From Candidatus Methanoperedens sp. (GTDB taxonomy: Archaea; Halobacteriota; Methanosarcinia; Methanosarcinales; Methanoperedenaceae), in contig VEPM01000023.1 in NCBI GenBank assembly GCA_012026795.1, positions 2,455 through 66,454 on the forward strand: DNA of 64,000 nt, given 5' to 3'. Both the position numbers and the translations under genes were made by a program. The notes under the pieces are model-generated. The model worked only from the letters and a program-made list of their open reading frames with translations, did no database searches and was not told the DNA's origin. Below are positions 34,110 to 53,116 of this stretch, piece by piece (position 1 is the stretch's first letter; every line of letters begins with the position of its first letter).

Positions 34110-34603
34110 TCAGAATCCTGGAAGGTACGATATTTATCGAGGATATTGAAATTTTCCTTTCAAAAATTAAAGAAATGAGGAACTGCAAAGATACTGTCAT
34201 CCTGGCGCTTGATGCAGATAAACTTGCAGGGAAAGAGCATCTTATGTTCGCTATTGAAAAAGCGATTGATTCATTCAAAACAGGGAGAAATATCGCAAAC
34301 GACCTCGGGAAAGAAATAATGCTTTATGCATCAGGCACGCGCCAGATAAACCGTGCCATGAAAATCGGTGTGCATAACGGAAAGAACAATATTGTACTTG
34401 TGGCTATTGGTGATGATGTTGACCAATATGTATTTGATGAGATAGAAATAAAGCCAGAGGATGTTATGCGCTACGAGGAATCAAAGAACAGGGTTTTGAT
34501 GGACATTTTCAATATTACTGATGAAGAGATCAAAGCTGCTGGTATTGAAAAGATCCCTGAACTTGTCCTTGAGAGGGTTGCGCTTGTGGATGTTTTGAAA
34601 TAG
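34106..34603 (+). CDS. cgi121: KEOPS complex subunit Cgi121
   Basis: IANDLGKEIMLYASGTRQINRAMKIG, LVLERVALVDVLK. Confidence 0.92.
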   Translation: MIRILEGTIFIEDIEIFLSKIKEMRNCKDTVILALDADKLAGKEHLMFAIEKAIDSFKTGRNIANDLGKEIMLYASGTRQINRAMKIGVHNGKNNIVLVAIGDDVDQYVFDEIEIKPEDVMRYEESKNRVLMDIFNITDEEIKAAGIEKIPELVLERVALVDVLK

Positions 34604-34763
34604 TTATGTTCGCTACATTAAGCCGTAACCCAGCATGTTTTGCTTAATAATAACTGGCAATAAATGATTTCTCCTGATTTCATCCACAGCCGTAATACGA
34701 AAAAGATTTATAGCATATCAGAAATAGGAGCATACGGAGTTTAACTAAAAAGTGGTATATAAT

Positions 34764-35945
34764 ATGAAACTATATTTATGTATTAGTATTATTATAATTA
34801 CAGGATTACTTTTTGTTCAATCTGCTTCTGCTCTGGAAGAAAGTCAGTTTGATATTAGTGTAATTAAATATGATCCCCAGCCTGTGGAGCCGGGTCAGAA
34901 TTTTGATATATGGGTTAGAGTGAAAAACATAGGAAATTCAGACGCTAAAGATGTAAATATCGAGATTCCCGGTAAGTTTCCTTTTCAGCCCCAGACCGGG
35001 GAAACAGGGGTCAGAACTGCGCCCTTGATAATAAAAGGCGACAGCTATACTTACCGTTTCAGCATGAAAGCTGATGATAACTCTGTAAAAGGAAATAATA
35101 AAATTGCCATCGGATACCGGCAAAATAACTATTTAACATCGCGGGATTTCGATATTCAGATAGGTTATTCAGTTACTGATGTGAAAGGCGTTATTGAATT
35201 GGAAAAATATGTGGTGAGCCCTGAAGCCCTCATGCCTGGCGATACAGGGCAGGTAACATTGACATTTAGAAATGCTGCCTCAGGTTCTTCATTAAAATTT
35301 GATGGAAAAGACTACAGCACTAACGCTCAGATCCAATCAATAACAATGCTCGATAATCCAATGATCAAAGTATTGAGTGATTCTTATAATAATGTGGGTA
35401 TAATCGGGCCAGGCAGCGAATTCGATGCACGTTATACAATTAAAGTGGATAATAACACACAAAATGGTATATATTTTATTGAATTTGATGTTGTTGGAAG
35501 TTCGAATTTGCGTGGAAAAATACCTATGAAAATAGAAGATTCGGTTGTTGAAATTATTCCCGTTGAGATTTCCGGCAGTAGCATATCCTTGAATATTGCA
35601 AACCAGAGGCCCAATAATATCGAAGCAGTCTCAATTATTCCTTATGCGAATAACACGATTTTCAAGCCAACCCAGTATTTCATAGGTACGATGCAGCCAA
35701 ATGAGGTATCCACAATAAAATTTGAAAAATCCAGCAATGAGAATGAAAACATAATGCTAAAAGCCCGATTCAAGAATGATGCAAACTGGCACGAGTCCGA
35801 AATTAAAATAGCATCACAAGTTAAGGGTAATTTAGTGGTACAATCTAATGCTGGTGGAATTAGCGGATCAATATTCCTGGTCACAACTATCTTTCTTATC
35901 GGTTTCTATACATATATGAAACAGAAGAGAAGGAAAATTTCATGA
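34764..35945 (+). CDS. COG1361-type secreted multi-Ig-like protein with C-terminal TM anchor
   Basis: Signal peptide; YDPQPVEPGQ, PEALMPGD, YFIGTMQPNE repeats typical of the family; TM helix and KQKRRK tail. Confidence 0.8.
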   Translation: MKLYLCISIIIITGLLFVQSASALEESQFDISVIKYDPQPVEPGQNFDIWVRVKNIGNSDAKDVNIEIPGKFPFQPQTGETGVRTAPLIIKGDSYTYRFSMKADDNSVKGNNKIAIGYRQNNYLTSRDFDIQIGYSVTDVKGVIELEKYVVSPEALMPGDTGQVTLTFRNAASGSSLKFDGKDYSTNAQIQSITMLDNPMIKVLSDSYNNVGIIGPGSEFDARYTIKVDNNTQNGIYFIEFDVVGSSNLRGKIPMKIEDSVVEIIPVEISGSSISLNIANQRPNNIEAVSIIPYANNTIFKPTQYFIGTMQPNEVSTIKFEKSSNENENIMLKARFKNDANWHESEIKIASQVKGNLVVQSNAGGISGSIFLVTTIFLIGFYTYMKQKRRKIS

Positions 35946-37132
35946 AGCTGTCTGATACATTCGAATATATATATATAAGCTTTTTAAGCAATAAATTCAA
36001 GACGATTTTATCGAGTTTAGGAATAATAATAGGTGTTATAGCAATTGTAGTAATGCTATCTGTGGGCGAAGGTCTTTATGTAAATGTCAAAGGAGCCATG
36101 GGAAATCTGGATTTAAACACACTGACAATCACTCCCGGAGGCTTGTCACCGGGGCAGTTTAAGAAAAACGCAGAACTTACCGAAAAAGATGTTAAGACTA
36201 TAGAAAGTATTCCCGGAGTAAAATTTGTCTCACCAAGAAAAACCATAAGTGCTACCATTATTTCCAAAGAAACTGAAAGAACAATAACGCTTGTGGGTAT
36301 TTATCCGTCAAAGGAGCAGAAACTTGGAGAGGGAATAATGCTTGGCAGGTTTCTCACGGAATCAGACCAGAACGGTATAGTTCTAAAAGAGCAGTCTGCG
36401 CAGAATATGTTTAGAATGCCATTGAACCCGGGTAGTATCGTGAAAATAAAGAACAACGAAAATGGCAAAGAGGCAGGATTTAAAATTGTAGGTTTGCTCG
36501 CCGAAGCAAAACAATCTTATTTTGGGGGTGTAGCTAATGCAGAGGTATATACAAGCCTCAAAAGTCTGGAGGAAATTTCTAATGGAAGTTCATATTCAAT
36601 GATTCAGGTAACTGTTGAAGAATCAGAGGACGTTGAGGAAATGGGGGTACTGATCCAAGAATCTCTTGAACGCTCACATAGAAACGAAGCATTGTCAATT
36701 ATAGCTATGAAAACTTTCCTGGAAATGGTAAATAATGTAATGGGCATGATCAAAATTGCGCTGGGAGGGATAGGTGTTATCTCCCTTGTGGTAGGGGGGA
36801 TTGGAATTGTTAACGTGATGATGCTTACAGTGAATGAAAGAGTGAGAGAAATAGGCACTATGAAAGCTATGGGAGCAACAGAAGCTGATATCAGGACTCT
36901 ATTTGTATTTGAATCGGGATTTCTGGGTCTTATTAGCGGGCTTATAGGTGTTGTGCTGGGCTCAGGTATCGCATTATTAATCTCAGCGATTGGAGCATTC
37001 CCACTTGATGTGACATTGAGTTCAGTATTGGTCGGGTTGGGTTTCGGGGTCATAACCACAATGGCGGCGGGAATATATCCAGCAAGCAGAGCTGCGAGAC
37101 TTGACCCTATAGAGGCATTCAGGGCTGAATAG
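35942..37132 (+). CDS. MacB/FtsX-type ABC transporter permease
   Basis: LSSLGIIIGVIAIVVMLSVGEG, GGIGIVNVMMLTVNERVREIGTMKAMGA, YPASRAARLDPIEA. Confidence 0.95.
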   Translation: MKLSDTFEYIYISFLSNKFKTILSSLGIIIGVIAIVVMLSVGEGLYVNVKGAMGNLDLNTLTITPGGLSPGQFKKNAELTEKDVKTIESIPGVKFVSPRKTISATIISKETERTITLVGIYPSKEQKLGEGIMLGRFLTESDQNGIVLKEQSAQNMFRMPLNPGSIVKIKNNENGKEAGFKIVGLLAEAKQSYFGGVANAEVYTSLKSLEEISNGSSYSMIQVTVEESEDVEEMGVLIQESLERSHRNEALSIIAMKTFLEMVNNVMGMIKIALGGIGVISLVVGGIGIVNVMMLTVNERVREIGTMKAMGATEADIRTLFVFESGFLGLISGLIGVVLGSGIALLISAIGAFPLDVTLSSVLVGLGFGVITTMAAGIYPASRAARLDPIEAFRAE

Positions 37133-37142
37133 GAGAAAGAAT

Positions 37143-37757
37143 ATGGGTTTCATAAAAAGAATAATAGATACTTTGAAAAGACCTAAAGAAGCGATGCGGG
37201 AAATTTCAAATATTCCTCTAATAGAGGAGGCTGTTATGATAGTGGGAATATATGCCCTCTTTTCTGCAGCTGACCTGTACGTGCGATCTTCCAGAATTGT
37301 GCTGGTCACTGAAACAAATCTTGAATTTGCGCAAATAATAGGAGTGATAACCGGGATACTTGCGGCATTTATAACATGGTTAATATTGACAGGTATTATC
37401 CATAATATTTCTCTTGCCATCGGTGGAAAGGGTAGATTTTATCCTCATATGATGGTTCTTGTAGGATATGCCATGCTGCCACTAACTTTTTCTGCAATCC
37501 TCAGCACGCTTATCATTTATTCGACCGGGTCAAATATTGTTAATGTAAATCCATTTAATAGTCAGCAGATGCTTGAGGAAATCCAGAATAGTACACCTTA
37601 CGTAGCTTCTGAATTCATAAGTTATATAGCATGGATATGGTCGTTTTTAATTATATCTTTTGGGATTCAGCTTCATCAAAAGTTATCAAAAAAAAGCGCA
37701 TTGATTACAGTTGCAATACCGCTTGGTTTATGGTTGGGTTTATCTCTATTATTTTAA
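37143..37757 (+). CDS. Yip1 domain membrane protein
   Basis: TLKRPKEAMREI, WLILTGIIH..SLAIGGKG, GYAMLP, W..LIISFGIQ..QKLSKKSA. Confidence 0.85.
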   Translation: MGFIKRIIDTLKRPKEAMREISNIPLIEEAVMIVGIYALFSAADLYVRSSRIVLVTETNLEFAQIIGVITGILAAFITWLILTGIIHNISLAIGGKGRFYPHMMVLVGYAMLPLTFSAILSTLIIYSTGSNIVNVNPFNSQQMLEEIQNSTPYVASEFISYIAWIWSFLIISFGIQLHQKLSKKSALITVAIPLGLWLGLSLLF

Positions 37758-37778
37758 TTATTGGCATGGGTGATTGGA

Positions 37779-38390
37779 ATGGAAAATCAATTAATAAATA
37801 GGTTTATTCGAGATATTAAAAATGTAATGACAAGGGAAAACTTAAAGGAAAAACTGAAACTTCCAATATACATTTATATATTAAGTTTTTTTATCGGTTT
37901 GATAATTGTAGGGGTTATTGGCCTTTTGAAACCTGATATGTCAATGGAAGCAATAAATCCTGAAAAATTCCAGATGAATTCATCTTCAACATGGTGGTTT
38001 ATCATCACAAATAATACCAAGGTAGTTATTTCGCTATTTATTAGTGGGATACTCCTATATATAGGCCCTCTATTGGGTATGGGTGCCAACGGTTTTATCC
38101 AGGGGCTTTTATTGTGGGCATCAATCCAGAGCAGTGGTGCAATGGGAATAGTGAAATATTTGATCCTGATAGTTCCACATGGAATGTTTGAAGTGCCTGC
38201 CTTATTATTGAGTGGGGGTGCCGGAATTATCCTTTCTCATGAACTCAGGAATTTGATAATTTGGAGGGTGATTAATAAGAGCAAGCTATATGAGGCATTT
38301 ATTTTTCTTTTCATCGCTTTTTGTTTGTTTCTGGTCGCATCAGTTATTGAAACACAAATCAGCTTCAGATTTGCAAATTTCATCAAATGA
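37779..38390 (+). CDS. SpoIIM/DUF95 family membrane protein
   Basis: IITNN..V, NGF..G, LIVPHGMFEVPA (PHG..E), 5 TM helices. Confidence 0.88.
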   Translation: MENQLINRFIRDIKNVMTRENLKEKLKLPIYIYILSFFIGLIIVGVIGLLKPDMSMEAINPEKFQMNSSSTWWFIITNNTKVVISLFISGILLYIGPLLGMGANGFIQGLLLWASIQSSGAMGIVKYLILIVPHGMFEVPALLLSGGAGIILSHELRNLIIWRVINKSKLYEAFIFLFIAFCLFLVASVIETQISFRFANFIK

Positions 38391-38557
38391 TTGCTTTTTA
38401 TTTAACTATGCCTGCAACAAACCCTGTTAATATAAAATGATCTCAATAAAAAGAAACTAAATTATGAAATAGTGTTTCTTTCTTTTTTATATAGCTTTGT
38501 GTGAATGTTAAGTTAGTGGATCTAGGGTGGTCCAACTCATAAATTGGAGGTGAAAGA

Positions 38558-38677
38558 ATGATAGCATCAGTAATAGGTTTCCTGAACACTGTGGGAGCAC
38601 CAGCACTTGTAGTTGAAATACTCAAACAGTTATCAGCAGTATATGCAAAACTTGGCTTACTCTTGATTGTAGGTTAA
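38558..38677 (+). CDS. 39-aa hydrophobic amphipathic peptide, candidate exported/cyclised precursor (not in ORF track)
   Basis: Perfect GGAGGTGA SD 4 nt before ATG; TTTTATAT box about 70 nt upstream; MIASVIGFLNTVGAPALVVEILKQLSAVYAKLGLLLIVG. Confidence 0.75.
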   Translation: MIASVIGFLNTVGAPALVVEILKQLSAVYAKLGLLLIVG

Positions 38678-38773
38678 GATACCAAGACAGTTACTCGGCG
38701 TTAATATTCAGAAAATACAAATGGGCATTTTGGCTTATTGCCTTATGCATCTTTTTTAGGATTAAATATATCA

Positions 38774-39451
38774 TCAACTATTAACTATCTTTCCATCTTC
38801 AATCCTTATTGTCCTGTCAGCATACTGAGCAGTCCTGATATCATGAGTGACAAGAATTATTGATCTCCCCTGGTCATGCAGGTTTTTGAAAATCTTCATT
38901 ATCTGATCTCTGGCCTTTGTATCAAGATTTCCAGTTGGTTCATCCGCAAGGATAATGGATGGTTCATTTGCAAGTGCCCTTGCTATAGAAACTCTCTGTC
39001 TCTCTCCACCTGATAGCTCCGTAGGCCTGTGCAGTATTCTATCTTCCAGTCCCACATCCCTCAAGAGGACTTTTGCCCGCTCGATCCTTTTTTGTTTCGG
39101 GATTTCCTGGTAAATCATAGGAAGCTCAACGTTCCTCAGGGCATTCAATCTGGCAAGAAGATTAAAATTCTGAAAAACAAAACCTATTTTTCGTCCTCTG
39201 ATCTTTGCCAGCTCGTCATCGGATAAATTTGAGGTGTCAGTATCATCAATAAATATTTTTCCTGTTGAAGGCCTATCAAGGCATCCTATAAGATTCAATA
39301 ACGAACTCTTACCACTCCCGGAAGGCCCCATTATTGCCACAAACTCTTTTTTTTTAATAGCTAAATATACATCTTTAAGAACAGGCACAGCCATATCTCC
39401 AAGTTGATATACTTTATTAATATTTTCAACCACAACCACATTACCAGACAT
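38774..39451 (-). CDS. ABC transporter ATP-binding protein (LolD/MacB type)
   Basis: GPSGSGKS, LSGGERQRV, ILADEPTGNLD, LVTHD. Confidence 0.96.
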   Translation of the reverse strand: MSGNVVVVENINKVYQLGDMAVPVLKDVYLAIKKKEFVAIMGPSGSGKSSLLNLIGCLDRPSTGKIFIDDTDTSNLSDDELAKIRGRKIGFVFQNFNLLARLNALRNVELPMIYQEIPKQKRIERAKVLLRDVGLEDRILHRPTELSGGERQRVSIARALANEPSIILADEPTGNLDTKARDQIMKIFKNLHDQGRSIILVTHDIRTAQYADRTIRIEDGKIVNS

Positions 39452-39659
39452 ATAGCTTTTTCATAGAATCAATAGTTTAAAAGTTTTCCGCATACTTCTT
39501 AATAACTAAAATAAAAAACTTCATATATCATGAACATTATGTTTGAACTGAGTGTGAATGGAATAATCCGGAAAAGGGGATGCAAAAATGGTATTATGTT
39601 TCGTGACTCATGATTGGATTACCTTTTCTGATTGAAGAATTCCTGACGGAGTTGATGGT

Positions 39660-39920
39660 ATGAAAAGAACTAGAAGAACATCGATGGAACTTATCGTTGA
39701 GATTCTAAGAGCTTGCTGCAATGGTGGTGTAAATAAAACAAAAATTGTTTGTTCGACAAACTTAAATTCTAAAATCACAAATGAATATCTGAAGTTTCTA
39801 ATTGAAAAGGAATATATAACCAATGGGAACCATATATTTCAAATTTCTAATAATGGTAAGAAATTCCTGACCCAGGTTAATGAAATAACCCCATTACTAA
39901 ATATTAAAAGATTAAAATAG
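39660..39920 (+). CDS. Winged-HTH transcriptional regulator, copy 1
   Basis: RRTSMELIVEILRAC..GVNKTKIV..TNLN...YL..LIEKEYI. Confidence 0.85.
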   Translation: MKRTRRTSMELIVEILRACCNGGVNKTKIVCSTNLNSKITNEYLKFLIEKEYITNGNHIFQISNNGKKFLTQVNEITPLLNIKRLK

Positions 39921-40193
39921 TATAATTAAAATATTATTTTATTTTTCTGTGTTATGTGTATAAAAATAATCATAGGTATATTTGAAAAACGATAAATATA
40001 TATGCAAAGAAGCTGTTAAATAAATTCTTAATAAAAACGGTATGGGATTGTGGTGCTTATATGATTGAAAGTGTGGATTAAATCATATCTCTGACCAGTA
40101 AATCTGGAAAAAAGGGGAATTGTAACAACAAGTAAAACATTAATGTGAACCACATCCCGGGAGAATTTGGTATTATTAGTTGGTGGTGGTATC

Positions 40194-40445
40194 ATTAAAC
40201 GAATTAGAAGAACAAAAATGGAACTTATGATTGAAATTCTAAGAGCTTGCTGTAATGGTGGTGTAAACAAGACTAAAATTAGTTATTCTTCGAACTTAAA
40301 TTCTAAAATCACAAATGAATATCTGAAGTTTCTGATCGAAAAGGAATATATTATCAATGGAAATGATAAATATCAAATTTCCAAAAATGGTCTGGAGTTC
40401 CTGAATAAGATCATTAATATACAAACATTACTTAAAAAACAATAA
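40194..40445 (+). CDS. Winged-HTH transcriptional regulator, copy 2 (ATT aligns with the ATG of copy 1)
   Basis: Near-identical paralog, including identical NLNSKITNEYLKFLIEKEYI; alternative TTG start at 40167. Confidence 0.85.
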   Translation: MKRIRRTKMELMIEILRACCNGGVNKTKISYSSNLNSKITNEYLKFLIEKEYIINGNDKYQISKNGLEFLNKIINIQTLLKKQ

Positions 40446-40580
40446 TACAATCAGATTTAATATAATGAGCATAACAATGATAATTATTATATTTAAAAAG
40501 CGATAAAGATATATGCAAGAAACGCTTGTATGTTGTATCCTCAAACCAATGAGGAAAAAAAGGAGTATGGTGAATGGTTT

Positions 40581-43500
40581 ATGATTAGAAATGGAATTAG
40601 GAAAACATTTATTATTATTGTTATTTTAATATTAATTGGACAGGTCGCTCAATCTACCGAGGAATATAATTTAAGCGGCTATGTATCAAATATTAATGGC
40701 GATGTATTAGGTGGGGTGCAGGTAAATAATGGCTTTTATAAGAATACCACATCAACAAATGGATTTTATTTGATCACCGGTCTGCCGAATGGTACTTATA
40801 ACTTCAGTTATTATAAAAAAGGATATTATATTAGTTATTTACCAGTTACAATCAGCGGTAAAGATAATACGACTGCTAACCTTAAATTGCAGGCGGAACC
40901 TGTGGCTAAGGATACCGTCGCACCGGTCATCACCCTACGAGGCCCGAATCCAGTATCTGTTGAAACAGGCTCCTCATATACCGATGCAGGTGCAACTGCA
41001 TTGGATGATGTTGACGGTAATATTACCTCTTCCATAATAACTGTCAATCATGTTAAAACAGCAGTCGTTGGCACATATACTGTCACCTATAATGTAAAAG
41101 ACTCAAACAACAATAATGCCGATCAGAAAACAAGAACGGTCAATGTGGTAGATACAAAAAAACCTGTCATCACCGTACTTGGCCCTAATCCAGCAACCGT
41201 TGAATCAGGCTCCTCATATACCGATGCAGGTGCAACTGCATCGGATAATGTTGATGGTAGTATCGCAGTTACAAAAACAGGTACTGTAAATACATCAAAA
41301 GTCGGAACATATACTATCACATACACAGCTACCGACTCCTCAAGCAATACTGCAACAGCATCAAGAACGGTAAATGTAAAGTATACGAATAAACCGCCTG
41401 TCCAGGCTCCAATCGGTCCTAAATCAGTTTCAGAGCAAAATATATTGAGTTTCACGGTATCAGCCACTGATCCGGAACATGATCCGATAACGTATAGTAC
41501 AAACGCCAAAGGATATCTGAATCCTTCCACAGGCCAGTTCACCTGGACGCCCACATATGGGGATCAAGGTATTTACACATGGACTTTCACTTCTACGGAT
41601 AGCTCTAAAGGGGCAGCAAGTGAAACGATAACGGTTACAGTGAATGATGTGCTATTGAATATAATATTTTCTGAACCTACTGCCAGTCCGACGACACAGA
41701 TAGGTCAAGGAATGTGGTTTAGGATATCCCTTAATAGAGCAGCCAATGTAACCTGGTATATAGATGATTCTATTGTTAATAAAAGTTCAAATGTAGCAGA
41801 ATCAGGCTACTATAACAAAACAATAGGTGTTGGGACACATACTGTTAAAGTAATTGCCTCTGATGGTTATGATTCAGTCTCAAGGACATGGGGCTGGGCT
41901 GTTGATGGTGGCACTGGAAAGATTCATAATAAAAATACAGGAATAAATTACAACACCATTCAGGCGGCAATAGATGATCCTTTAACTTTAGATGGGCATA
42001 CGATATTGGTAGACCCTGTTACCTATAATGAGAATGTGATAGTGGGAAAAAGACTGACTATAAGATCGGAGCCTGCTGGTGCAGCCATAACATCAAATAA
42101 GAACGATACGATCTTTAAAGTAACAGTGCCCTATGTAAATATCAGTGGATTCTCAATATCGGGTGCTAAGGATACAGGTTCAAAAATCGCAGGGATATAC
42201 CTTACTAATGCAGCACATCACAGCACTATTTCCAATAATGAAGTAACAACCAGCAACTACGGCATTTATCTGGATGCAAGCAGCAGCAACATCCTTGATC
42301 ATAACAATATTTCGAATAATCAAGGGGTACCAAATGAATTTTGTTTCCTGGATACTTGCATACCTCTATATGGAACCTCTTCAGGCCATGGCATATATCT
42401 AACCAACTCGAACAATAACAAGATAATACACAATAAAGCTAATTCGAATTATATCGACGGTATCTATCTGACTAATTCCCACAATAATACCTTAACTGAC
42501 AATAATGCAAACTCTAACACTGAAAATGGTATTTATCTGAACAATTCTAATAAAAACAATCTCACCAGCAACATAATGGATGGAAATAAATATAATTTCA
42601 AGCTGGATGCGAATTCTGATTCAGATCTTAATAACAAAATCGACACAAGCAATAAGGTGGACGGAAAACCAATCTATTACTTAAATGGAGCTATAAACAC
42701 AATTTATGATTCGTCTAAAAATGTTGGAACTTTCTATTGTATAAACTGTGCAAATATAACCATTAAAGAGCAGGATTTGAAGAATAACGGTGTTGGAATA
42801 TTATTATGGAATTCAAGTAATGCCAGAATATATAACAACAATCTAACTGGTAATCAGAAGCAGGCAATAGTAAACGGTGGAAATGGTAATGTCTTTAACC
42901 TCACATCAGAAACCGGAGGCAATTACTGGAGCGATTATACTGGCACAGATGCTAACAGTGACGGCATTGGCGATACACCATATGTAATAATTGCAGGGGT
43001 GCAGGATGCCTATCCTTATATCAAAGCGAATGGCTGGAAGCTTCCCAGGGAACTGTCGATTAAAATAAATGGTGGTGAAAGTTTAACTCTTGTTTCGAAT
43101 GTAACTCTAAATTTATCTGCAAAAAATGCAAATGAGATGAGGTTCAAGAACGAAAGTGGCGACTGGACCGGCTGGGAACCCTTTAATTCCACGAAACTAT
43201 GGACCCTATCCGGCGGCAGTGGCCTGAAAACCGTTTATTTTGAAGCCAATAATAGTGCGGGTACATCTGTCCCGGCAAAAGATGAGATTATGCTGGGAGG
43301 AAGTGGTGGCAACACTGGCAGTAGCGGCAGCAGTGGCAGCAGCGGCGGAAGCGGCGGGGGCGGTGGAGGAGGAGGTTCCGGTGAGAATTACTCCAATATC
43401 GAAGTAATTGAGAAATATGACCTGGCTATTTACAAGGATAAGCTCACATCATACATATTCAAAGACAATAGAAATCCAATAAGGTTTGTTAATATAACAG

Positions 43501-44039
43501 GTGATGTGAATGCAGGGGAAATTACCTCAATGATAGAAGTCCTGAGAGGCACTTCCACATTATTAGATGTCGCTGCGCCCGGGTTGGTTTATAAAAATGA
43601 AAATATCTGGATCGGCACAACCAGTTTCGCAGCCCGAAAGAGTATGAAGGATGCAGTCATAAGATTCCGGGTTGAGAACTCCTGGATGGCAGACAATAAT
43701 ATCCAGAGCGAGGATATTTCGATTTTTAAGTGGGGTGGAATATGGAACAAGCTGGAAACAAAAGAAGTTGGTGAAGATGACAGCTACCATTATTTCGAAG
43801 CAAAGACAGATTCCTTCTCCCATTTCGCAATAAGCGCACTTAAAGGTGGAGGAGGACCAGTAGGAGGCGGAATATTTCCGGTATCTGTGCCAAAGCAAAC
43901 ACCTGCTCAAGAAGTCAAAACCTATGTTCTGCCTTACAGAGGGACAACTGAAAAGGCACCCGGTGCAGAAGGATTTGAAGTTATTTTGACTGTAGCTGCA
44001 TTTTCAATGCTATATGTATTATGGCACAGAAGAAGGTAA
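40581..44039 (+). CDS. Large surface protein: carboxypeptidase-regulatory-like, two DUF5011 Ig repeats, cadherin-like, NosD/CASH beta-helix, PGF-pre-PGF, PGF-CTERM-like anchor
   Basis: Signal peptide; 240-bp DNA repeat (40921/41161) encoding YTDAGATA; N..GIYL..S.NN beta-helix; G/S linker; HFSHFAI-like end (FSHFAI); APGAEGF, TM helix, RRR. Confidence 0.88.
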   Translation: MIRNGIRKTFIIIVILILIGQVAQSTEEYNLSGYVSNINGDVLGGVQVNNGFYKNTTSTNGFYLITGLPNGTYNFSYYKKGYYISYLPVTISGKDNTTANLKLQAEPVAKDTVAPVITLRGPNPVSVETGSSYTDAGATALDDVDGNITSSIITVNHVKTAVVGTYTVTYNVKDSNNNNADQKTRTVNVVDTKKPVITVLGPNPATVESGSSYTDAGATASDNVDGSIAVTKTGTVNTSKVGTYTITYTATDSSSNTATASRTVNVKYTNKPPVQAPIGPKSVSEQNILSFTVSATDPEHDPITYSTNAKGYLNPSTGQFTWTPTYGDQGIYTWTFTSTDSSKGAASETITVTVNDVLLNIIFSEPTASPTTQIGQGMWFRISLNRAANVTWYIDDSIVNKSSNVAESGYYNKTIGVGTHTVKVIASDGYDSVSRTWGWAVDGGTGKIHNKNTGINYNTIQAAIDDPLTLDGHTILVDPVTYNENVIVGKRLTIRSEPAGAAITSNKNDTIFKVTVPYVNISGFSISGAKDTGSKIAGIYLTNAAHHSTISNNEVTTSNYGIYLDASSSNILDHNNISNNQGVPNEFCFLDTCIPLYGTSSGHGIYLTNSNNNKIIHNKANSNYIDGIYLTNSHNNTLTDNNANSNTENGIYLNNSNKNNLTSNIMDGNKYNFKLDANSDSDLNNKIDTSNKVDGKPIYYLNGAINTIYDSSKNVGTFYCINCANITIKEQDLKNNGVGILLWNSSNARIYNNNLTGNQKQAIVNGGNGNVFNLTSETGGNYWSDYTGTDANSDGIGDTPYVIIAGVQDAYPYIKANGWKLPRELSIKINGGESLTLVSNVTLNLSAKNANEMRFKNESGDWTGWEPFNSTKLWTLSGGSGLKTVYFEANNSAGTSVPAKDEIMLGGSGGNTGSSGSSGSSGGSGGGGGGGGSGENYSNIEVIEKYDLAIYKDKLTSYIFKDNRNPIRFVNITGDVNAGEITSMIEVLRGTSTLLDVAAPGLVYKNENIWIGTTSFAARKSMKDAVIRFRVENSWMADNNIQSEDISIFKWGGIWNKLETKEVGEDDSYHYFEAKTDSFSHFAISALKGGGGPVGGGIFPVSVPKQTPAQEVKTYVLPYRGTTEKAPGAEGFEVILTVAAFSMLYVLWHRRR

Positions 44040-47442: not shown

Positions 47443-48069
47443 TTAAAGCTCTGCTTCGAAATCCGCTACTGTATGGGTTATAGTGTCTCCTCTTTCCTCA
47501 AGGGTCTTTTTTGCAAGGAGCCAGTATATCAGAGCGAGCGCTTTCCTCCCTTTATTGTTTGTTGGAATTACAAGGTCAACATTACCTAATGAATTGTTGG
47601 TATCGCAAAGGCCAATCACAGGTATACCGATATTGACTGCTTCGTTTACTGCCTGCATATCCCCTGCTGGATCTGTTACCACAAGAATATCTGGTTCTAT
47701 GAACTTATGTAGTTTTGGGTTTGTCATTGTACCCGGGATAAACCTTCCTATTTCTGCTCTTGCGCCTATTACCTTTGCGAACATTTCCGAAGGATAATAA
47801 CCATATTGTCTTGCAGATACGACCAGGATCTTTTGCGGGTCATATTTTGCAAGCAATTTTGCTGCAAGTCTTATTCTCTGGTCGGTTGCCTGTATATCCA
47901 GCACATATAAGCCATCAGTCCTGACGCGATATACAAAGCGCATCATTTCTTTTGTTTTTTGCTGGGTACCAATATGTATCCCAGCAGTCAGATATTCGTC
48001 CTGCGGAATGATCGATTCATAACCAGTATCCTGTTTTACATCCTGTTTTATATCAATAATATCTTCCAT
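47443..48069 (-). CDS. rps2: 30S ribosomal protein uS2
   Basis: [33 protein letters not shown]. Confidence 0.97.
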
Positions 48070-48082
48070 TTAAACACACACC

Positions 48083-48286
48083 TTATGAAGCCATTTTTAA
48101 TTCTTTTTCTTTTACTGTTCTTTTCACTGTTATCGGGATTACTCCCTGTTCCAATTCTGCCAGAGCCAAATCTATAGGCTCACCTTTATCAATATCTATC
48201 AAAACCGGTGCCCCAAGGGAGATCTGAAGCGCCCTTGCACCGATAAGTCTTGCACGCTCATATCGAGTCAGCTTTATTTCTATCAC
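48083..48286 (-). CDS. rpoK: RNA polymerase subunit Rpo6
   Basis: [22 protein letters not shown]. Confidence 0.97.
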
Positions 48287-48408
48287 TAAATCACCTCAAA
48301 AATAACCTTAGTACCTTAAAGTTCAATGAATTCAATTGTTATGCATATTTTTCCCGGAGTCCCTCCGGGAGTGGTTCATGTTCTTTTCAATAGCCGTGTC
48401 CTGAGAAA

Positions 48409-48483
48409 TGGGGTTGCTGAGATTTGAACTCAGGTCACAGCGTCCCGAACGCTATAGGATGGACCAGGCTACCCTACAACCCC
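48409..48483 (-). tRNA. tRNA-Pro(CGG)
   Basis: GGGGTTG acceptor pairs with CAACCCC; anticodon loop TTCGGGA; GTTCAAATC T-loop; usual position between rpoN and rpoK. Confidence 0.95.
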
Positions 48484-48486
48484 TCC

Positions 48487-48672
48487 TTACTGGTACGGTG
48501 CCAGGAGGTCCACTAACTCTACATGGGTCAGCAGCATTCGCCTGCAGCAGTATCGTTCAATTCCAAGATCAGTGAGGACTTTACCTGCGTCCTCGGTCTG
48601 AATTCGTTTCTTGTATTCATCCCAGACACCTGAGACGACTTTACCGCATGAAAAGCATCGTACCGGTATCAT
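48487..48672 (-). CDS. rpoN: RNA polymerase subunit Rpo10
   Basis: [11 protein letters not shown]...[11 protein letters not shown]. Confidence 0.97.
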
Positions 48673-48675
48673 GTT

Positions 48676-49074
48676 TCACCTGTATGATTTCTGTCTCCTC
48701 TTTCTGGCTCCGCGACCGCCGAATTTCTTTGGTAGTTTGTAACGGGTGTCGTTCACAAGCAGACTCCTGTCATACGTTGCCATCGCATCTCTTAGTGCGG
48801 TGTCATTTGTCCATTCCACAAGTCCTCTTGCGATAGCTGTACGAACAGCACCTGCCTGGCCAAATATGCCGCCGCCATGGACATTTACATCAATATCGAC
48901 GGTGGAGATGACATTATTTGCAAAATCAAGAGGCTCTGACATTTTGAAACGGATCAATTCCGGTTCGAGTATTTCTATGGGTTTCTTGTTTACTCTTACA
49001 CGCCCCTTTCCTTCCCTTATGGTTGCCCGGGCGATTGCGGTTTTCCTTTTTCCTGATGAATTAACGATTTTCAT
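48676..49074 (-). CDS. rps9: 30S ribosomal protein uS9
   Basis: [35 protein letters not shown]; start ATG 49074 after AGGTG. Confidence 0.97.
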
Positions 49075-49083
49075 ATATAACAC

Positions 49084-49503
49084 CTAAAATTTTGATCCTA
49101 ATCTCTTGCTCAAGTCACCAAGCACAGTATAATTACTGGTGGATAGACGTGTAATACTTGCATCATCTATGGTGATCGCCTGTTCTTTACTCAGTTCAGC
49201 CGGAACGCCGACAAAGACCTTTAATAAGTTATAAGCATCTCTTCCTGAGGTTTTTGTATGCGGGATCATACCCCTGATCGTTCTTGCCACAATCTGGTCC
49301 GGCCTTCTTGGAAAACGAGGGCCGAATTCCCGTGAACCGCGGGCTACATAAGCATGGTATCGGTCGAATGTGGCATCTTTCCTGCCTGAGATGATCGCTT
49401 TTTCAGCGTTTATGATATTGATCTGTTCACCATTTAATATTCGCTGTGCTACCGTACTTGCCATTCTTCCCAGAATAAGATTATTTGCATCTATTACTGT
49501 CAT
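49084..49503 (-). CDS. rpl13: 50S ribosomal protein uL13
   Basis: VIDANNLILGRMAS, NAEKAIISG, RTIRGMIP. Confidence 0.97.
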   Translation of the reverse strand: MTVIDANNLILGRMASTVAQRILNGEQINIINAEKAIISGRKDATFDRYHAYVARGSREFGPRFPRRPDQIVARTIRGMIPHTKTSGRDAYNLLKVFVGVPAELSKEQAITIDDASITRLSTSNYTVLGDLSKRLGSKF

Positions 49504-49507
49504 GTTA

Positions 49508-49891
49508 TCACCCGATTATTCTTACCCTGGAGCCTTCCGGGTTTTTGTTCATCAGTTCCTCTATTGAGAGGCATGAGCCACCGGCTTCGATAATTTTGCT
49601 CCTTGCGCCTTCACTGAAACTTACAGCTGCAACAGTTAATTGATGATTCAATTCTCCGGCACCCAGGACCTTGCCAGGTACGAGTATCAGGTCTTTTTCT
49701 TTTGTGTACCTGTTTATCCTGCTGAGATTGACTTCAGTAGCTTCTCTTGTGGGGCGTTCAAGCCTTATCGCAATGTCACGCCATAGTGGAACCTGTTTGT
49801 TCCTGGATTGTTCTTTCAGACCTGAAATAAGGTCTAACAATCTTCCATTTGTCTTGTAATTATTTTTCATTCTTTTCCTCCGTAAGACCAT
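49508..49891 (-). CDS. rpl18e: 50S ribosomal protein eL18
   Basis: [39 protein letters not shown]. Confidence 0.96.
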
Positions 49892-52852: not shown

Positions 52853-53116
52853 CCGCAGATAAACGCAGATGAACGCAGATTTATTTATCGGTTACATTTG
52901 CGCTTAATTGATTATATTACATTGCAAAAGGCGAAAAGCATAGCAGCGATGTTTTTTGAGACCTTTCTGGCCAGGTCAGGAAAAATTCCAAAATCACAAT
53001 ATAGAACACGGATGACGCGAATCGGATGGATTTTCACGGATCTGTGCGCATTCGCGTCATCCGTGCAATCCGTGTTCCATCTCAATCCATCTGCGTTTAT
53101 CTGCGTTCATCTGCGG
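52853..53116. repeat. Nested inverted-repeat element (MITE/REP-like)
   Basis: Outer arms 52853-52880 and 53089-53116 built from 10-bp RAACGCAGAT units; inner perfect 16-bp arms 53007-53022 and 53050-53065. Confidence 0.85.

What the first reader, a model, noticed from the sequence alone, without database searches (positions are those of the whole stretch)
34764..39451. Candidate archaeal circular-bacteriocin-like (head-to-tail peptide) locus with a hidden 39-aa precursor
Seen: an operon of COG1361 surface protein, MacB-type permease, Yip1 and SpoIIM/DUF95. Next comes a 39-aa ORF missing from the ORF track (38558-38677: MIASVIGFLNTVGAPALVVEILKQLSAVYAKLGLLLIVG) with its own TATA-like box and a perfect GGAGGTGA SD, then a convergent LolD-type ABC ATPase. 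The peptide is mostly A/V/L/I/G, has no Cys, is net +1, and E20/K23/Q24/K31 fall on one helix face. Known: circular bacteriocin loci (enterocin AS-48, carnocyclin A, leucocyclicin Q) encode a DUF95/SpoIIM protein implicated in maturation/immunity, and AS-48-type loci add an EFGH exporter (Yip1-like, adaptor, ABC ATPase, MacB-like permease). Here COG1361 could replace the adaptor. Inference: an exported, possibly cyclised, membrane-active peptide from an anaerobic methanotroph. The strong SD implies high expression. At 39 aa it is shorter than typical 58-70-aa circular bacteriocins, so it could be a new class, or a cyclic pilin-like or signalling peptide.
Basis: partly seen in the sequence, partly recalled or inferred. 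Interest (0 to 1): 0.85.

Follow-up and report, generated by a model that had tools for sequence, protein, structure and literature searches.

The report
Archaeal bacteriocin-like small peptide cassette
The unannotated 39-codon ORF is a real, very highly transcribed gene for a tiny hydrophobic peptide, present in 1-3 tandem copies, and it co-diverges with the neighbouring Yip1 and SpoIIM membrane proteins inside a conserved MacB-type ABC transporter operon; that is the layout of a bacteriocin production/immunity locus, seen here in an archaeon, but nothing yet shows that the peptide is circular or antimicrobial.

Summary
**Verdict: observation confirmed; interpretation partly supported.**

- **Real gene:** the ORF alone is not beyond chance. 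However, every orthologous locus with sequence downstream of SpoIIM carries a small ORF behind GGAGGTG; most encode 38-40-aa hydrophobic "MI..." peptides.
- **Copy number:** read graphs and one resolved contig show the ORF as a tandem unit. It is single-copy in the window and in one run, and 2-3 copies elsewhere.
- **Expression:** in RNA-Seq contigs it reaches ribosomal-protein-gene depth, while the rest of the operon is near zero.
- **Variable cassette:** against a close relative, CARDB, MacB and the ATPase are ~95% identical (dS ~0.14). The Yip1 membrane part, SpoIIM and the peptide are 67-75% identical (dS 0.5-0.7).
- **Best reading:** a self-produced membrane-active peptide whose cognate Yip1/SpoIIM pair and a MacB extruder mature it, clear it from the membrane or export it.
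- **Against circular-bacteriocin membership:** 39 aa against cores of 58 aa or more, two predicted helices, no family hit, and no AS-48B-like protein or immunity gene.
- **Untested:** cyclisation and antimicrobial activity.

The parts
34752..35945 (+). COG1361/CARDB-type surface protein with an N-terminal signal-like segment and a C-terminal TM anchor; first gene of the operon; belongs to the conserved 'engine' part
   Evidence: ORF. Pfam CARDB 4.6e-06. 93.9% aa identity to L034, dS 0.146.
35942..37132 (+). MacB-type (type VII) ABC permease with an extracytoplasmic MacB_PCD domain; conserved engine
   Evidence: Pfam MacB_PCD 4e-26 and FtsX 1.5e-21. NCBIfam MacB/LolCE-like. 95.5% identity to L034, dS 0.145.
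37143..37757 (+). Yip1 / YknW-like polytopic membrane protein; from about codon 55 onward it is part of the variable cassette
   Evidence: Pfam Yip1 5.7e-17. NCBIfam YknW_fam 5.7e-09, below cut-off. Codons 1-55 are 90.9% identical to L034 (dS 0.20); codons 56-end are 69.1% identical (dS 0.48).
37761..38390 (+). SpoIIM/DUF95 membrane protein; part of the variable cassette; the PHGxxE motif and several intramembrane polar residues are invariant
   Evidence: Pfam SpoIIM 5.3e-23. 74.5% identity to L034, dS 0.61. Invariant P139 H140 G141 E144 N84 N85 E197 Q199 among 8 orthologues.
37300..38700 (+). Variable cassette: Yip1 membrane part + SpoIIM + peptide gene(s). It is 73-85% nt identical to L034, while the flanks are 93-99% identical.
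   Evidence: Sliding-window identity. dS is 3-5x higher than in the flanks.
38486..38493 (+). TATA-like box TTTATATA, about 65 nt upstream of the ATG; conserved in relatives; proposed own promoter of the peptide gene(s)
   Evidence: Sequence. The same box is seen upstream of the small ORFs in L030, L034, L027/L028 and L031. RNA contig depth rises only over the peptide unit.
38546..38553 (+). Shine-Dalgarno GGAGGTGA, 4 nt before the ATG
   Evidence: It is the only occurrence in the window. GGAGGTG precedes every orthologous small ORF.
38558..38677 (+). 39-aa hydrophobic peptide gene (MIASVIGFLNTVGAPALVVEILKQLSAVYAKLGLLLIVG); predicted helix 2-12, G-A-P kink, helix 16-38
   Evidence: Homologues P0008-P0013 and loci L019, L024, L025, L027, L030, L034. 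AF2 pLDDT 79. dN/dS 0.44-0.46 against L034. RNA contigs.
38557..38678 (+). 122-nt tandem repeat unit (ORF plus 1 nt each side). In other runs it recurs after a 77-nt spacer that carries its own AGGAG SD. Copy number is 1-3.
   Evidence: A separate unitig at 2.3-2.9x flank depth. A 137-nt junction unitig consists of ORF end + 77 nt + ORF start. The single-copy path is in X4. Two copies are resolved in L034.
38774..39451 (-). MacB/LolD-type ABC ATPase, convergent with the operon; conserved engine
   Evidence: Pfam ABC_tran 1e-32. NCBIfam MacB 7.3e-75 and LolD 1.8e-70, both below cut-offs. 95.6% identity to L034, dS 0.128. Same position in L019 and L034.
39660..40445 (+). Two paralogous HTH_45 winged-helix genes (39660-39920 and 40167-40445); possible regulators; membership of the system is uncertain
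   Evidence: Pfam HTH_45 9.8e-20 and 2.4e-20. Duplicated 273-nt unit. Same two genes follow the ATPase in L034.

Best explanation
**What it is.** A bacteriocin-like (archaeocin-like) peptide production and self-protection locus.

**Shown**
- The 39-aa ORF is a real gene with its own promoter-like box and a conserved perfect SD.
- It occurs as 1-3 tandem, near-identical copies.
- It is transcribed at about ribosomal-protein-gene level, at least 10 times above the adjoining operon genes.
- It co-diverges with the Yip1 membrane part and SpoIIM as one replaceable cassette, set between conserved MacB permease/CARDB genes and a conserved ATPase gene.

**Inferred**
- The peptide is a helix-kink-helix whose variable residues lie on the polar face of helix 2. 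It enters the producer's membrane in large amounts.
- The allele-matched Yip1 and SpoIIM proteins recognise it. They either mature it or shield the cell from it.
- The generic MacB/ATPase engine works from the extracytoplasmic side by mechanotransmission, as AS-48EFGH and YknWXYZ are proposed to do. It extracts the peptide from the outer leaflet and releases it, possibly onto or past the CARDB surface protein.
- Old, divergent cassette alleles sitting in otherwise near-identical operons suggest frequency-dependent selection between strains, as with toxin/immunity pairs.

**Not decided.** Whether the released peptide kills competitors, signals, or is cyclised.
For: **The ORF is a gene**
- SD-led small ORFs lie downstream of SpoIIM in every evaluable orthologous locus: L019, L020-23, L024, L025/L032, L027/L033, L028, L030, L031 and L034.
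- Where the ORF is complete, the 38-40-codon length is kept at only 26-31% identity. dN/dS is 0.44-0.46.

**Tandem copies**
- The ORF is its own unitig at 2.3-2.9x flank depth, and junction unitigs exist.
- Two copies are resolved in L034, 117 of 120 nt identical.
- Second copies are seen in L024 and L025.

**Expression**
- The X25 RNA-Seq junction contig has depth 43.9, against 0-3.4 for the rest of the operon, 11-107 for ribosomal-protein genes and 3-5 for enolase.
- The ORF is also present in very small metatranscriptome assemblies, X26 and X27.

**Co-diverging cassette**
- Nucleotide identity to L034 is 93-99% in the flanks and 73-85% over 37300-38700.
- dS is 0.13-0.15 in the flanks and 0.48-0.68 in the cassette.
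- L032 shows the same trend: MacB 94%, Yip1 80%, SpoIIM 75%, peptide 26%.

**Architecture precedent**
- DUF95 + peptide + ABC define circular-bacteriocin clusters. Yip1 plus a three-gene accessory ABC set is common there, and multiple precursor copies occur (PMC8659200, PMC8534725, PMC6131525).
- AS-48EFGH and YknWXYZ are MacB-type pumps that protect against an endogenous peptide (PMC5985334, PMC4887032).

**Variable positions**
- Residues 16, 20, 23, 24 and 31 lie on the polar face of helix 2.
Against: - There is no evidence of translation, export or any activity.
- RNA contigs carry no strand information.
- The peptide is much more hydrophobic (GRAVY 1.2-1.6) and less charged (net -2 to +3, mostly about 0) than typical bacteriocins. 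It could simply stay in the membrane.
- No separate immunity gene, AS-48B-like maturation protein or dedicated C1D-type exporter is present.
- SpoIIM-family genes are common in archaea in unrelated housekeeping contexts, so SpoIIM alone is weak evidence.
- The family is tiny: 6 called members among 1.84 billion representatives. Generality is therefore unknown.
- The elevated cassette divergence could reflect a single recombination import rather than sustained diversifying selection.
- One sub-lineage (L027, L028, L031, L033) places a different 54-aa acidic small protein first. This shows the cargo is not uniform.
Confidence: 0.5

Rival explanations
1. True circular peptide: the 39-aa product (or its des-Met form) is joined head to tail with help from SpoIIM. 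This would give a very small two-helix cyclic archaeocin. It is the first reader's preferred reading and a special case of the best explanation.
For: - SpoIIM/DUF95 is called the class-defining protein of circular bacteriocin clusters (PMC11580447, PMC13289728).
- The minimal triad is present.
- Leaders can be as short as 2 residues (PMC6131525).
- Both termini are hydrophobic. Joining them would create a continuous ~21-residue apolar stretch, LGLLLIVG-MIASVIGFLNTVG.
- The termini are the best-conserved parts among close variants.
Against: - Known mature circular bacteriocins are 58-82 aa with 4-5 helices. This peptide has 39 aa and 2 predicted helices.
- There is no Pfam, NCBIfam or PDB similarity.
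- The C-termini of orthologues vary in length and residue: G, N, R, A, L, K.
- There is no AS-48B-type protein.
- The role of DUF95 in cyclisation itself is unproven. An lcyD (DUF95) knockout still made the circular peptide (PMC6131525).
Confidence: 0.13
2. Non-antagonistic abundant membrane or surface peptide. The product would be a structural, proteolipid-like or signalling peptide of the cell envelope. Yip1, SpoIIM and MacB would insert, chaperone or extract it, with no role in competition between cells.
For: - GRAVY of 1.2-1.6 and near-neutral charge are typical of integral membrane segments.
- Helix 2 has 23 residues, enough to span a bilayer.
- Expression at ribosomal-protein level and gene amplification fit a stoichiometrically abundant component.
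- The locus sits among core housekeeping genes, not in an obvious mobile island.
- MacB-type systems also do non-toxin work, for example Lol, FtsEX and HrtAB (PMC5985334).
Against: - A structural component would not be expected to diverge to 26-31% identity while MacB stays at 76-94%.
- It would also not be expected to sit in an allele-replaced cassette with dS 3-5x that of the flanks, or to vary in copy number between samples of one reactor study.
Confidence: 0.27
3. The small ORF is the immunity or accessory membrane peptide (like As-48D1 or CclI), or a type I toxin-like stress peptide. The real effector would be elsewhere or absent.
For: - Immunity proteins of circular-bacteriocin clusters are small and hydrophobic (PMC6131525).
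- In L027, L028, L031 and L033 a different 54-aa amphipathic ORF precedes the 40-aa one or takes its place. It could be the effector there.
Against: - Immunity peptides are described as cationic; this one is about neutral.
- Tandem amplification, a perfect SD and transcript levels far above every other gene of the locus are what is expected of a product gene, not an immunity gene.
- The window, L019 and L034 contain no other candidate effector ORF between SpoIIM and the ATPase.
- Type I toxins are normally tightly repressed.
Confidence: 0.07
4. Not a protein gene: a highly expressed tandem non-coding RNA, or an assembly or chance ORF.
For: - A 39-codon ORF has P of about 0.07 by chance.
- RNA contigs do not prove translation and have no strand.
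- No gene caller recorded this exact product.
Against: - The repeat boundaries coincide with the start and stop codons to within 1 nt.
- ORF length, the 'MI' start and the SD are kept in orthologues whose nucleotide sequence is largely unalignable.
- Indels are in frame, and dN/dS is below 1.
- There is no Rfam family.
- The same sequence is seen in many independent runs.
Confidence: 0.03

Closest known systems
Circular (head-to-tail cyclised) bacteriocin gene clusters of Bacillota (enterocin AS-48, carnocyclin A, leucocyclicin Q, cerecyclin, pumilarin/altitudin)
   Same: - A small hydrophobic peptide gene lies next to a SpoIIM/DUF95 membrane protein and ABC transporter genes.
- A Yip1 protein and a MacB-type accessory pump are present.
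- Several copies of the peptide gene can occur.
- The peptide gene is the most strongly expressed unit of the locus.
   Different: - The host is an archaeon.
- The peptide has 39 aa against precursor cores of 58-82 aa, with two predicted helices rather than a 4-5-helix saposin-like bundle.
- There is no recognisable leader, no sequence-family match and an essentially uncharged peptide.
- There is no AS-48B-type large membrane protein, no C1D-type exporter, no separate small cationic immunity gene and no MFP adaptor; a CARDB surface protein is present instead.
- This SpoIIM gave no tblastn match to any plasmid-borne gene.
MacB-type self-protection pumps AS-48EFGH (Enterococcus) and YknWXYZ (Bacillus, against the SDP toxin)
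   Same: - It combines a Yip1/YknW-like four-or-more-TM protein, a MacB-fold permease with an extracytoplasmic domain, and a separate LolD/MacB-type ATPase.
- It is genetically associated with an endogenous membrane-active peptide.
   Different: - There is no membrane-fusion (YknX / As-48F) adaptor.
- The ATPase gene is convergent rather than co-transcribed.
- Here the Yip1 protein co-diverges with the peptide, pointing to direct recognition. The role of YknW/As-48E is called enigmatic in the literature (PMC5985334).
Leaderless bacteriocins (aureocin A53 / lacticin Q-like; multi-peptide operons)
   Same: - The peptide is short with no leader.
- Several peptide genes lie in a row.
- ABC transporter and Yip1-domain proteins are present in the cluster (PMC11580447).
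   Different: - Leaderless bacteriocins are cationic and amphipathic, and their clusters lack a class-defining DUF95 protein (PMC11580447).
- This peptide is about neutral, far more hydrophobic, and is linked to SpoIIM.
Polymorphic toxin/immunity cassettes and bacteriocin-immunity allele replacement in bacteria
   Same: - A short segment holding the effector and its cognate membrane proteins is much more divergent than the conserved flanking genes, at both synonymous and non-synonymous sites.
- This is consistent with old alleles exchanged by recombination.
   Different: No toxin domain and no demonstrated antagonism. The 'immunity' role of Yip1/SpoIIM is inferred only.

Membership tests
Circular (head-to-tail cyclised) bacteriocin cluster | SpoIIM/DUF95 membrane protein encoded in the cluster (class-defining) | tested here: met
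   Pfam PF01944 at 5.3e-23, 82 bits against a cut-off of 26.9. Defining role per PMC6131525, PMC8659200 and PMC13289728.
Circular (head-to-tail cyclised) bacteriocin cluster | ABC transporter / ATP-binding protein in the cluster | tested here: met
   MacB permease and ABC ATPase. They are of the accessory EFGH/YknYZ type, not the C1D production type.
Circular (head-to-tail cyclised) bacteriocin cluster | Precursor with an N-terminal leader (2-48 aa) and a mature core of about 58-82 aa | tested here: not met
   The whole ORF is 39 aa and orthologues are 38-40 aa.
Circular (head-to-tail cyclised) bacteriocin cluster | Sequence membership of a known circular-bacteriocin family (e.g. Pfam BacteriocIIc_cy, TIGR03651) | tested here: not met
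   No Pfam or NCBIfam hit at E <= 0.01-1 for the window peptide or three homologues. No PDB sequence hit below E 0.9.
Circular (head-to-tail cyclised) bacteriocin cluster | Compact 4-5-helix (saposin-like) fold of the mature peptide | tested here: not met
   The AF2 model gives helix 2-12, a kink and helix 16-38 at pLDDT 79. This is a prediction from a shallow 5-sequence alignment.
Circular (head-to-tail cyclised) bacteriocin cluster | Small cationic hydrophobic immunity protein and a large polytopic maturation protein (As-48B/CclB type) | tested here: not met
   No further ORF of that kind lies between 34752 and 39451 or in L034 and L019.
Circular (head-to-tail cyclised) bacteriocin cluster | Peptide bond between the N- and C-terminal residues of the mature product | not testable with these tools
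   Needs mass spectrometry. Expected masses are 3975.36 Da cyclic against 3993.37 Da linear.
MacB-type peptide self-protection pump (AS-48EFGH / YknWXYZ) | MacB-fold permease (4 TM + extracytoplasmic PCD) with a separate MacB/LolD-type NBD | tested here: met
   MacB_PCD 4e-26 and FtsX 1.5e-21. ATPase best NCBIfam hits are MacB 7.3e-75 and LolD 1.8e-70.
MacB-type peptide self-protection pump (AS-48EFGH / YknWXYZ) | Co-encoded Yip1/YknW/As-48E-type membrane protein | tested here: met
   Pfam Yip1 5.7e-17. NCBIfam YknW_fam 5.7e-09, 35.8 bits, below the equivalog cut-off of 110.
MacB-type peptide self-protection pump (AS-48EFGH / YknWXYZ) | Membrane-fusion-protein adaptor (YknX / As-48F) | tested here: not met
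   No HlyD/MFP-family hit in any operon protein. A CARDB/COG1361 protein occupies the first position.
MacB-type peptide self-protection pump (AS-48EFGH / YknWXYZ) | Confers protection against an endogenous membrane-active peptide | not testable with these tools
   Only indirect evidence: Yip1/SpoIIM co-diverge with the peptide.
Leaderless bacteriocins | Short, leaderless, cationic amphipathic peptide active as translated; no class-defining accessory protein | tested here: inconclusive
   Short and apparently leaderless. However, net charge runs from -2 to +3, GRAVY is 1.2-1.6, and a DUF95 gene is linked, which PMC11580447 says is not a feature of this class.

The most novel reading that the evidence does not exclude
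A new class of ribosomal peptide in archaea. It would be a ~39-residue, two-helix, head-to-tail cyclised membrane-active peptide matured by an allele-matched SpoIIM/Yip1 pair and extruded by a MacB-type pump. The peptide + SpoIIM + Yip1 cassette would act as a strain-specific weapon/immunity or kin-recognition determinant in an environmentally important archaeal lineage. It would be the smallest SpoIIM-dependent cyclic peptide and the first from Archaea. It would also offer a minimal system for working out what DUF95 proteins do.
Probability: 0.12. Interest if true: 0.9.

Novelty: new variant of a known kind. Interest (0 to 1): 0.68.

Why it matters
- **Few archaeal precedents.** Ribosomal antagonistic or signalling peptides of archaea are barely known outside haloarchaea and Sulfolobales. 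None of the circular-bacteriocin genome-mining papers I could read mentions archaea.
- **Strong indirect evidence of importance.** The peptide family is unannotated and almost invisible to gene callers. Yet it is transcribed at ribosomal-protein level, amplified in tandem, variable in copy number between samples, and embedded in a recombining specificity cassette.
- **If it is a weapon or recognition system,** it would bear on strain competition in methane- and bioreactor-associated archaeal enrichments.
- **A test bed for SpoIIM and Yip1.** The tight co-divergence of SpoIIM and Yip1 with a 39-aa peptide gives a compact, testable hypothesis for the long-unresolved function of DUF95/SpoIIM and YknW/As-48E proteins: direct, allele-specific recognition of the peptide.
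- **A practical lesson.** These genes break short-read assemblies. Most related contigs end inside them, so they are systematically lost from MAGs.

Tried and rejected
1. **Genome-contig scan with the SpoIIM protein.** It returned only 28-38% identical SpoIIM genes, mostly from ANME-1/Methanophagales. They sit in housekeeping contexts (thermosome, DnaK, MBL-fold hydrolase) with no Yip1, MacB or small ORF. They are paralogous contexts and were not used. In hindsight the conserved MacB or ATPase would have been the better bait, because SpoIIM lies in the variable cassette.
2. **Exact look-ups.** The peptide and the TTG-start SpoIIM are not on record.
3. **Direct peptide search.** An alignment query and an exhaustive HMM search found only 6 members.
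4. **tblastn of SpoIIM against 72,556 plasmids:** no match.
5. **Viral-contig scan with the SpoIIM alignment:** nothing.
6. **AlphaFold of SpoIIM.** pLDDT was 56, too poor for fold search, so none was run.
7. **Consensus promoter/terminator scan.** It found nothing. It looks for sigma-70-type patterns, which do not apply to archaea.
8. **Rfam:** only one tRNA in the window and nothing at the peptide.
9. **Run X2.** It is labelled 'metatranscriptomic WGA', but its depth follows DNA copy number, so it was not used as expression evidence.
10. **My interim reading that the window collapsed a 3-copy array.** I softened it after X4 showed a clean single-copy path. Copy number is polymorphic.
11. **Literature and long reads.** Makarova et al. 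2019 (mBio, archaeal antimicrobial peptides) is not held, so prior description there could not be excluded. No Nanopore run could be listed.
12. **Taxonomy.** It could not be verified, because cluster look-ups return no names.

Full report
**1. The observation**

- Pfam assigns CARDB (weak, 4.6e-06) to 34752-35945.
- It assigns MacB_PCD + FtsX to 35942-37132, Yip1 to 37143-37757, SpoIIM to 37761-38390 and ABC_tran to 38774-39451 on the minus strand.
- NCBIfam places the ATPase nearest MacB/LolD. It gives the Yip1 protein a sub-threshold YknW-family hit.
- The 39-aa ORF at 38558-38677 reads exactly as quoted.
- GGAGGTGA lies 4 nt upstream of the ATG, and TTTATATA lies at 38486-38493.
- Charge, lack of Cys and the single polar helix face (E20, K23, Q24, K31 at 140-240 degrees) are confirmed.

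Taken alone the ORF is not significant.
- A 39-codon open frame has P of about 0.07 at 39.8% GC.
- GGAGGTGA occurs once in the window against 1.16 expected.
- Its reality therefore had to be shown from outside the window.

**2. Relatives**

A scan of species-representative genomes with SpoIIM found only distant ANME-1-type SpoIIM genes in unrelated housekeeping neighbourhoods. These are not orthologous loci.

A protein search found seven true orthologues at 51-93% identity. Their contigs, together with one metagenome hit to Yip1, gave the comparison set.

Wherever sequence downstream of SpoIIM is available, a short ORF follows behind GGAGGTG. In most loci it encodes a 38-40-aa hydrophobic peptide beginning MI:

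| Locus | Small ORF downstream of SpoIIM |
|---|---|
| L019 | MALLSLITGAIDTTPEVLLVFGLIPWLQANFVVGLGLLL |
| L024 | MITVLINYLNAIPVNAQLVVLLTDFLTNHPSLLPGVVA, plus a second SD-ATG at the contig end |
| L025/L032 | [40 protein letters not shown], plus a second diverged copy |
| L027/L033 | MIRAIIAALASSNLAPIAILRFLQGIANLYQSLGL(S/I)VLAR |
| L030 | MIASVIKFLMTIGAPSLVIG... (cut by the contig end) |
| L034 | two copies of MIASVIGFLKTIGAPNLVIALLGT(I/L)TAVYAGLGLTVIVA |

- In L027/L033 a different 54-aa acidic ORF precedes the 40-aa one. In L028 and L031 only that 54-aa-type ORF is visible before the contig ends.
- L018, L026 and L029 end too early to judge.
- Several members share a Y-x-x-(L/I)-G-L motif.
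- A TATA-like box about 60-70 nt upstream recurs.
- An exhaustive profile search of 1.84 billion representative proteins found only six members. The family is narrow and almost never annotated.
- It matches no Pfam, NCBIfam or PDB sequence.
- AlphaFold predicts helix 2-12, a G-A-P kink and helix 16-38 (pLDDT 79, shallow alignment).

**3. A tandem, copy-number-variable unit**

Four Logan contigs of a 93-98% identical strain all stop at the same base inside the ORF. Laying assembly graphs on the window explains this.
- Positions 38557-38678, the ORF plus one base each side, form a separate 122-nt unitig at 2.3-2.9 times the depth of both flanks in X1, X3, X7 and X9.
- A 137-nt unitig consists of the last 30 nt of the ORF, 77 nt of spacer and the first 30 nt of the ORF.
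- The spacer ends in ...AAATAGGAGTTGAATAA(A)ATG, so it carries its own weaker SD.
- No other flanks are seen, so the copies are in tandem at this locus.
- X5 carries a contig that spans the junction plus a whole ORF.
- X4, from the same study as X3, has one clean contig through the region at depth 123, which is the single-copy form found in the window.
- Copy number is therefore polymorphic, from 1 to about 3.
- L034, a 10.9-kb contig with the same gene order as the window, resolves two copies that are 117/120 nt identical and 89 nt apart.
- Within a strain the copies are identical or nearly so, whereas strains differ (window E20/K23, X7 Q20/M23, X26 Q20/A23). This indicates recent amplification or concerted evolution.

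**4. Expression**

- In a genuine RNA-Seq metatranscriptome from the same study as X1 (run X25), only two contigs fall in 34400-39800.
  - One is a 175-nt piece of the CARDB gene at depth 3.4.
  - The other is a 229-nt contig at depth 43.9 that runs from the ORF end across the 77-nt spacer into the next ORF.
- In the same run the ribosomal-protein/RNAP-subunit cluster at 47.4-50 kb has depths of 11-107. Enolase has about 3-5, and most genes have 0-8.
- Two very small metatranscriptome assemblies of about 4,700 contigs each (X26, X27), and also X30, contain the ORF.
- The peptide unit is therefore transcribed, co-transcribed across copies, and far more abundant than the operon it follows. This fits the conserved promoter-like box.
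- Contigs carry no strand information, and translation is not shown.

**5. A co-diverging cassette**

| Gene (window against L034) | aa identity | dS | dN/dS |
|---|---|---|---|
| CARDB | 93.9% | 0.146 | 0.18 |
| MacB | 95.5% | 0.145 | 0.15 |
| ATPase | 95.6% | 0.128 | 0.17 |
| HTH_45 (first copy) | 91.9% | 0.185 | 0.19 |
| Yip1, whole | 75.4% | 0.390 | 0.34 |
| Yip1, codons 56-end | 69.1% | 0.484 | not computed |
| SpoIIM | 74.5% | 0.609 | 0.24 |
| Peptide | 64-68% | 0.676 | 0.44-0.46 |

- A sliding window puts the break points at about 37300, inside Yip1 after the N-terminal ~55 codons, and about 38700-38800.
- Because dS is also 3-5 times higher inside the cassette, these are old, divergent alleles placed by recombination into a nearly identical operon. 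It is not merely relaxed constraint.
- L032 shows the same gradient: MacB 94%, CARDB 81%, Yip1 80%, SpoIIM 75%, peptide 26%.
- Among close peptide variants the termini and the AVYA-LGL motif are fixed. Changes concentrate on the polar face of helix 2, at positions 16, 20, 23, 24 and 31.
- This is the strongest evidence that the peptide, SpoIIM and the membrane part of Yip1 act together and recognise one another. MacB, CARDB and the ATPase would be a generic engine.

**6. Mechanism**

Shown: gene reality (by conservation), amplification, high transcription and cassette co-divergence.

From established knowledge:
- MacB-type transporters do not carry substrates across their own membrane. They use ATP-driven mechanotransmission to do work on the outside (PMC5985334).
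- AS-48EFGH and YknWXYZ, each with a Yip1-like partner, protect producers against their own membrane-active peptide (PMC5985334, PMC4887032).
- All circular-bacteriocin clusters carry a DUF95/SpoIIM gene whose role (maturation, secretion or immunity) is unresolved (PMC6131525).

Inference:
- The peptide is made in bulk and partitions into the membrane.
- The matched Yip1/SpoIIM pair binds it, for maturation and/or shielding.
- MacB/ATPase expels it from the outer leaflet, possibly with the CARDB protein as an extracellular partner.
- Old alleles maintained in near-identical backgrounds suggest strain-level antagonism or recognition.

I put this at about 0.5. Cyclisation is a subset of it at about 0.13. 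A non-antagonistic abundant membrane or surface peptide is the main rival at about 0.27, because of the extreme hydrophobicity (GRAVY 1.2-1.6) and near-zero charge.

**7. Comparison with known systems**

- The locus works like a circular-bacteriocin cluster with an AS-48EFGH-type pump, but it does not pass membership.
- Features met: a SpoIIM gene, ABC genes and multiple peptide copies.
- Features tested and not met: core size (58 aa or more), helix-bundle fold, sequence family, and AS-48B-type and immunity genes.
- Not testable here: the N-to-C peptide bond.
- Leaderless bacteriocins share the short leaderless peptide, tandem genes and Yip1. However, they are cationic and lack DUF95 (PMC11580447).
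- None of the genome-mining papers I could read mentions archaea. The key archaeal survey (Makarova et al. 2019) is not held, so I cannot exclude prior mention there.

**8. Verdict**

- It is a new variant of a known kind: a bacteriocin-type peptide/immunity-pump architecture with a new, much shorter peptide family in Archaea.
- Interest is 0.68. The locus is unannotated, strongly expressed and polymorphic. It also offers a compact handle on SpoIIM/Yip1 function.
- Activity, export and cyclisation all remain to be shown.

Noticed in passing
L027 1383-1547, L028 976-end, L031 785-end, L033 571-735: A second, unrelated small-ORF family occupies the first position after SpoIIM in one sub-lineage. 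It is about 54 aa, acidic and amphipathic, for example (M)IEVLSRIAAERSMDLKTALETGAIALDPATGDAILKLVIAAKDSGALDLVLAL. It has a TTG start behind AAGGAGGTGA and the same TATA-like box. In L027/L033 the 40-aa hydrophobic peptide follows it. There is no Pfam hit. It could be an alternative cargo, a partner peptide or a regulator.
   Followed up: partly
window 52854-53115: A MITE-like element: 27-nt terminal inverted repeats (CGCAGATAAACGCAGATGAACGCAGAT / ATCTGCGTTTATCTGCGTTCATCTGCG) flank about 208 bp of intergenic DNA. Contigs of runs X25 and X30 skip 203-208 bp exactly here, so the insertion is absent in other strains or samples.
   Followed up: partly
window 39660-40518: A duplicated ~530-bp unit. 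Two HTH_45 winged-helix genes (273-nt repeat, 77% identical) are each followed by a similar 54-nt AT-rich segment (80% identical). The same pair follows the ATPase in L034, so they may regulate the peptide locus or the large surface protein downstream.
   Followed up: partly
window 40530-44039; L019 2482-4014 (-): A large secreted surface protein of 1169 aa carries a poly-Gly/Ser linker and a C-terminal domain (…SGENYSNIEVIEKYDLAIYKDK…). That domain recurs in the 510-aa protein next to the ATPase in L019. The corresponding genes in L034 carry CarboxypepD_reg and NosD/Beta_helix domains. Surface-protein genes seem to accompany the locus.
   Followed up: no
L020 3889-4236 (-), L021 473-820 (-), L034 138-452 (-): In related strains a truncated FtsX/MacB-like gene fragment (58-61% identical to the C-terminus of the operon's MacB) lies on the opposite strand just upstream of the CARDB gene. 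The window has the CGI-121 gene there instead, so the upstream boundary of the locus has been rearranged.
   Followed up: no
window 47443-49891 (-): An ordinary archaeal ribosomal-protein/RNA-polymerase-subunit cluster (S2, RpoK- and RpoN-like, S9, L13, L18e) with a tRNA at 48409-48483. It was used here only as an expression yardstick.
   Followed up: yes
window 38687 and 38709 (relative to runs X7, X9): The 93-98% identical strain has an 18-nt insertion (CTTACGCGAGAAACGTTT) and a 2-nt insertion just downstream of the last peptide copy. The region between the array and the ATPase 3' end is therefore also indel-variable.
   Followed up: no
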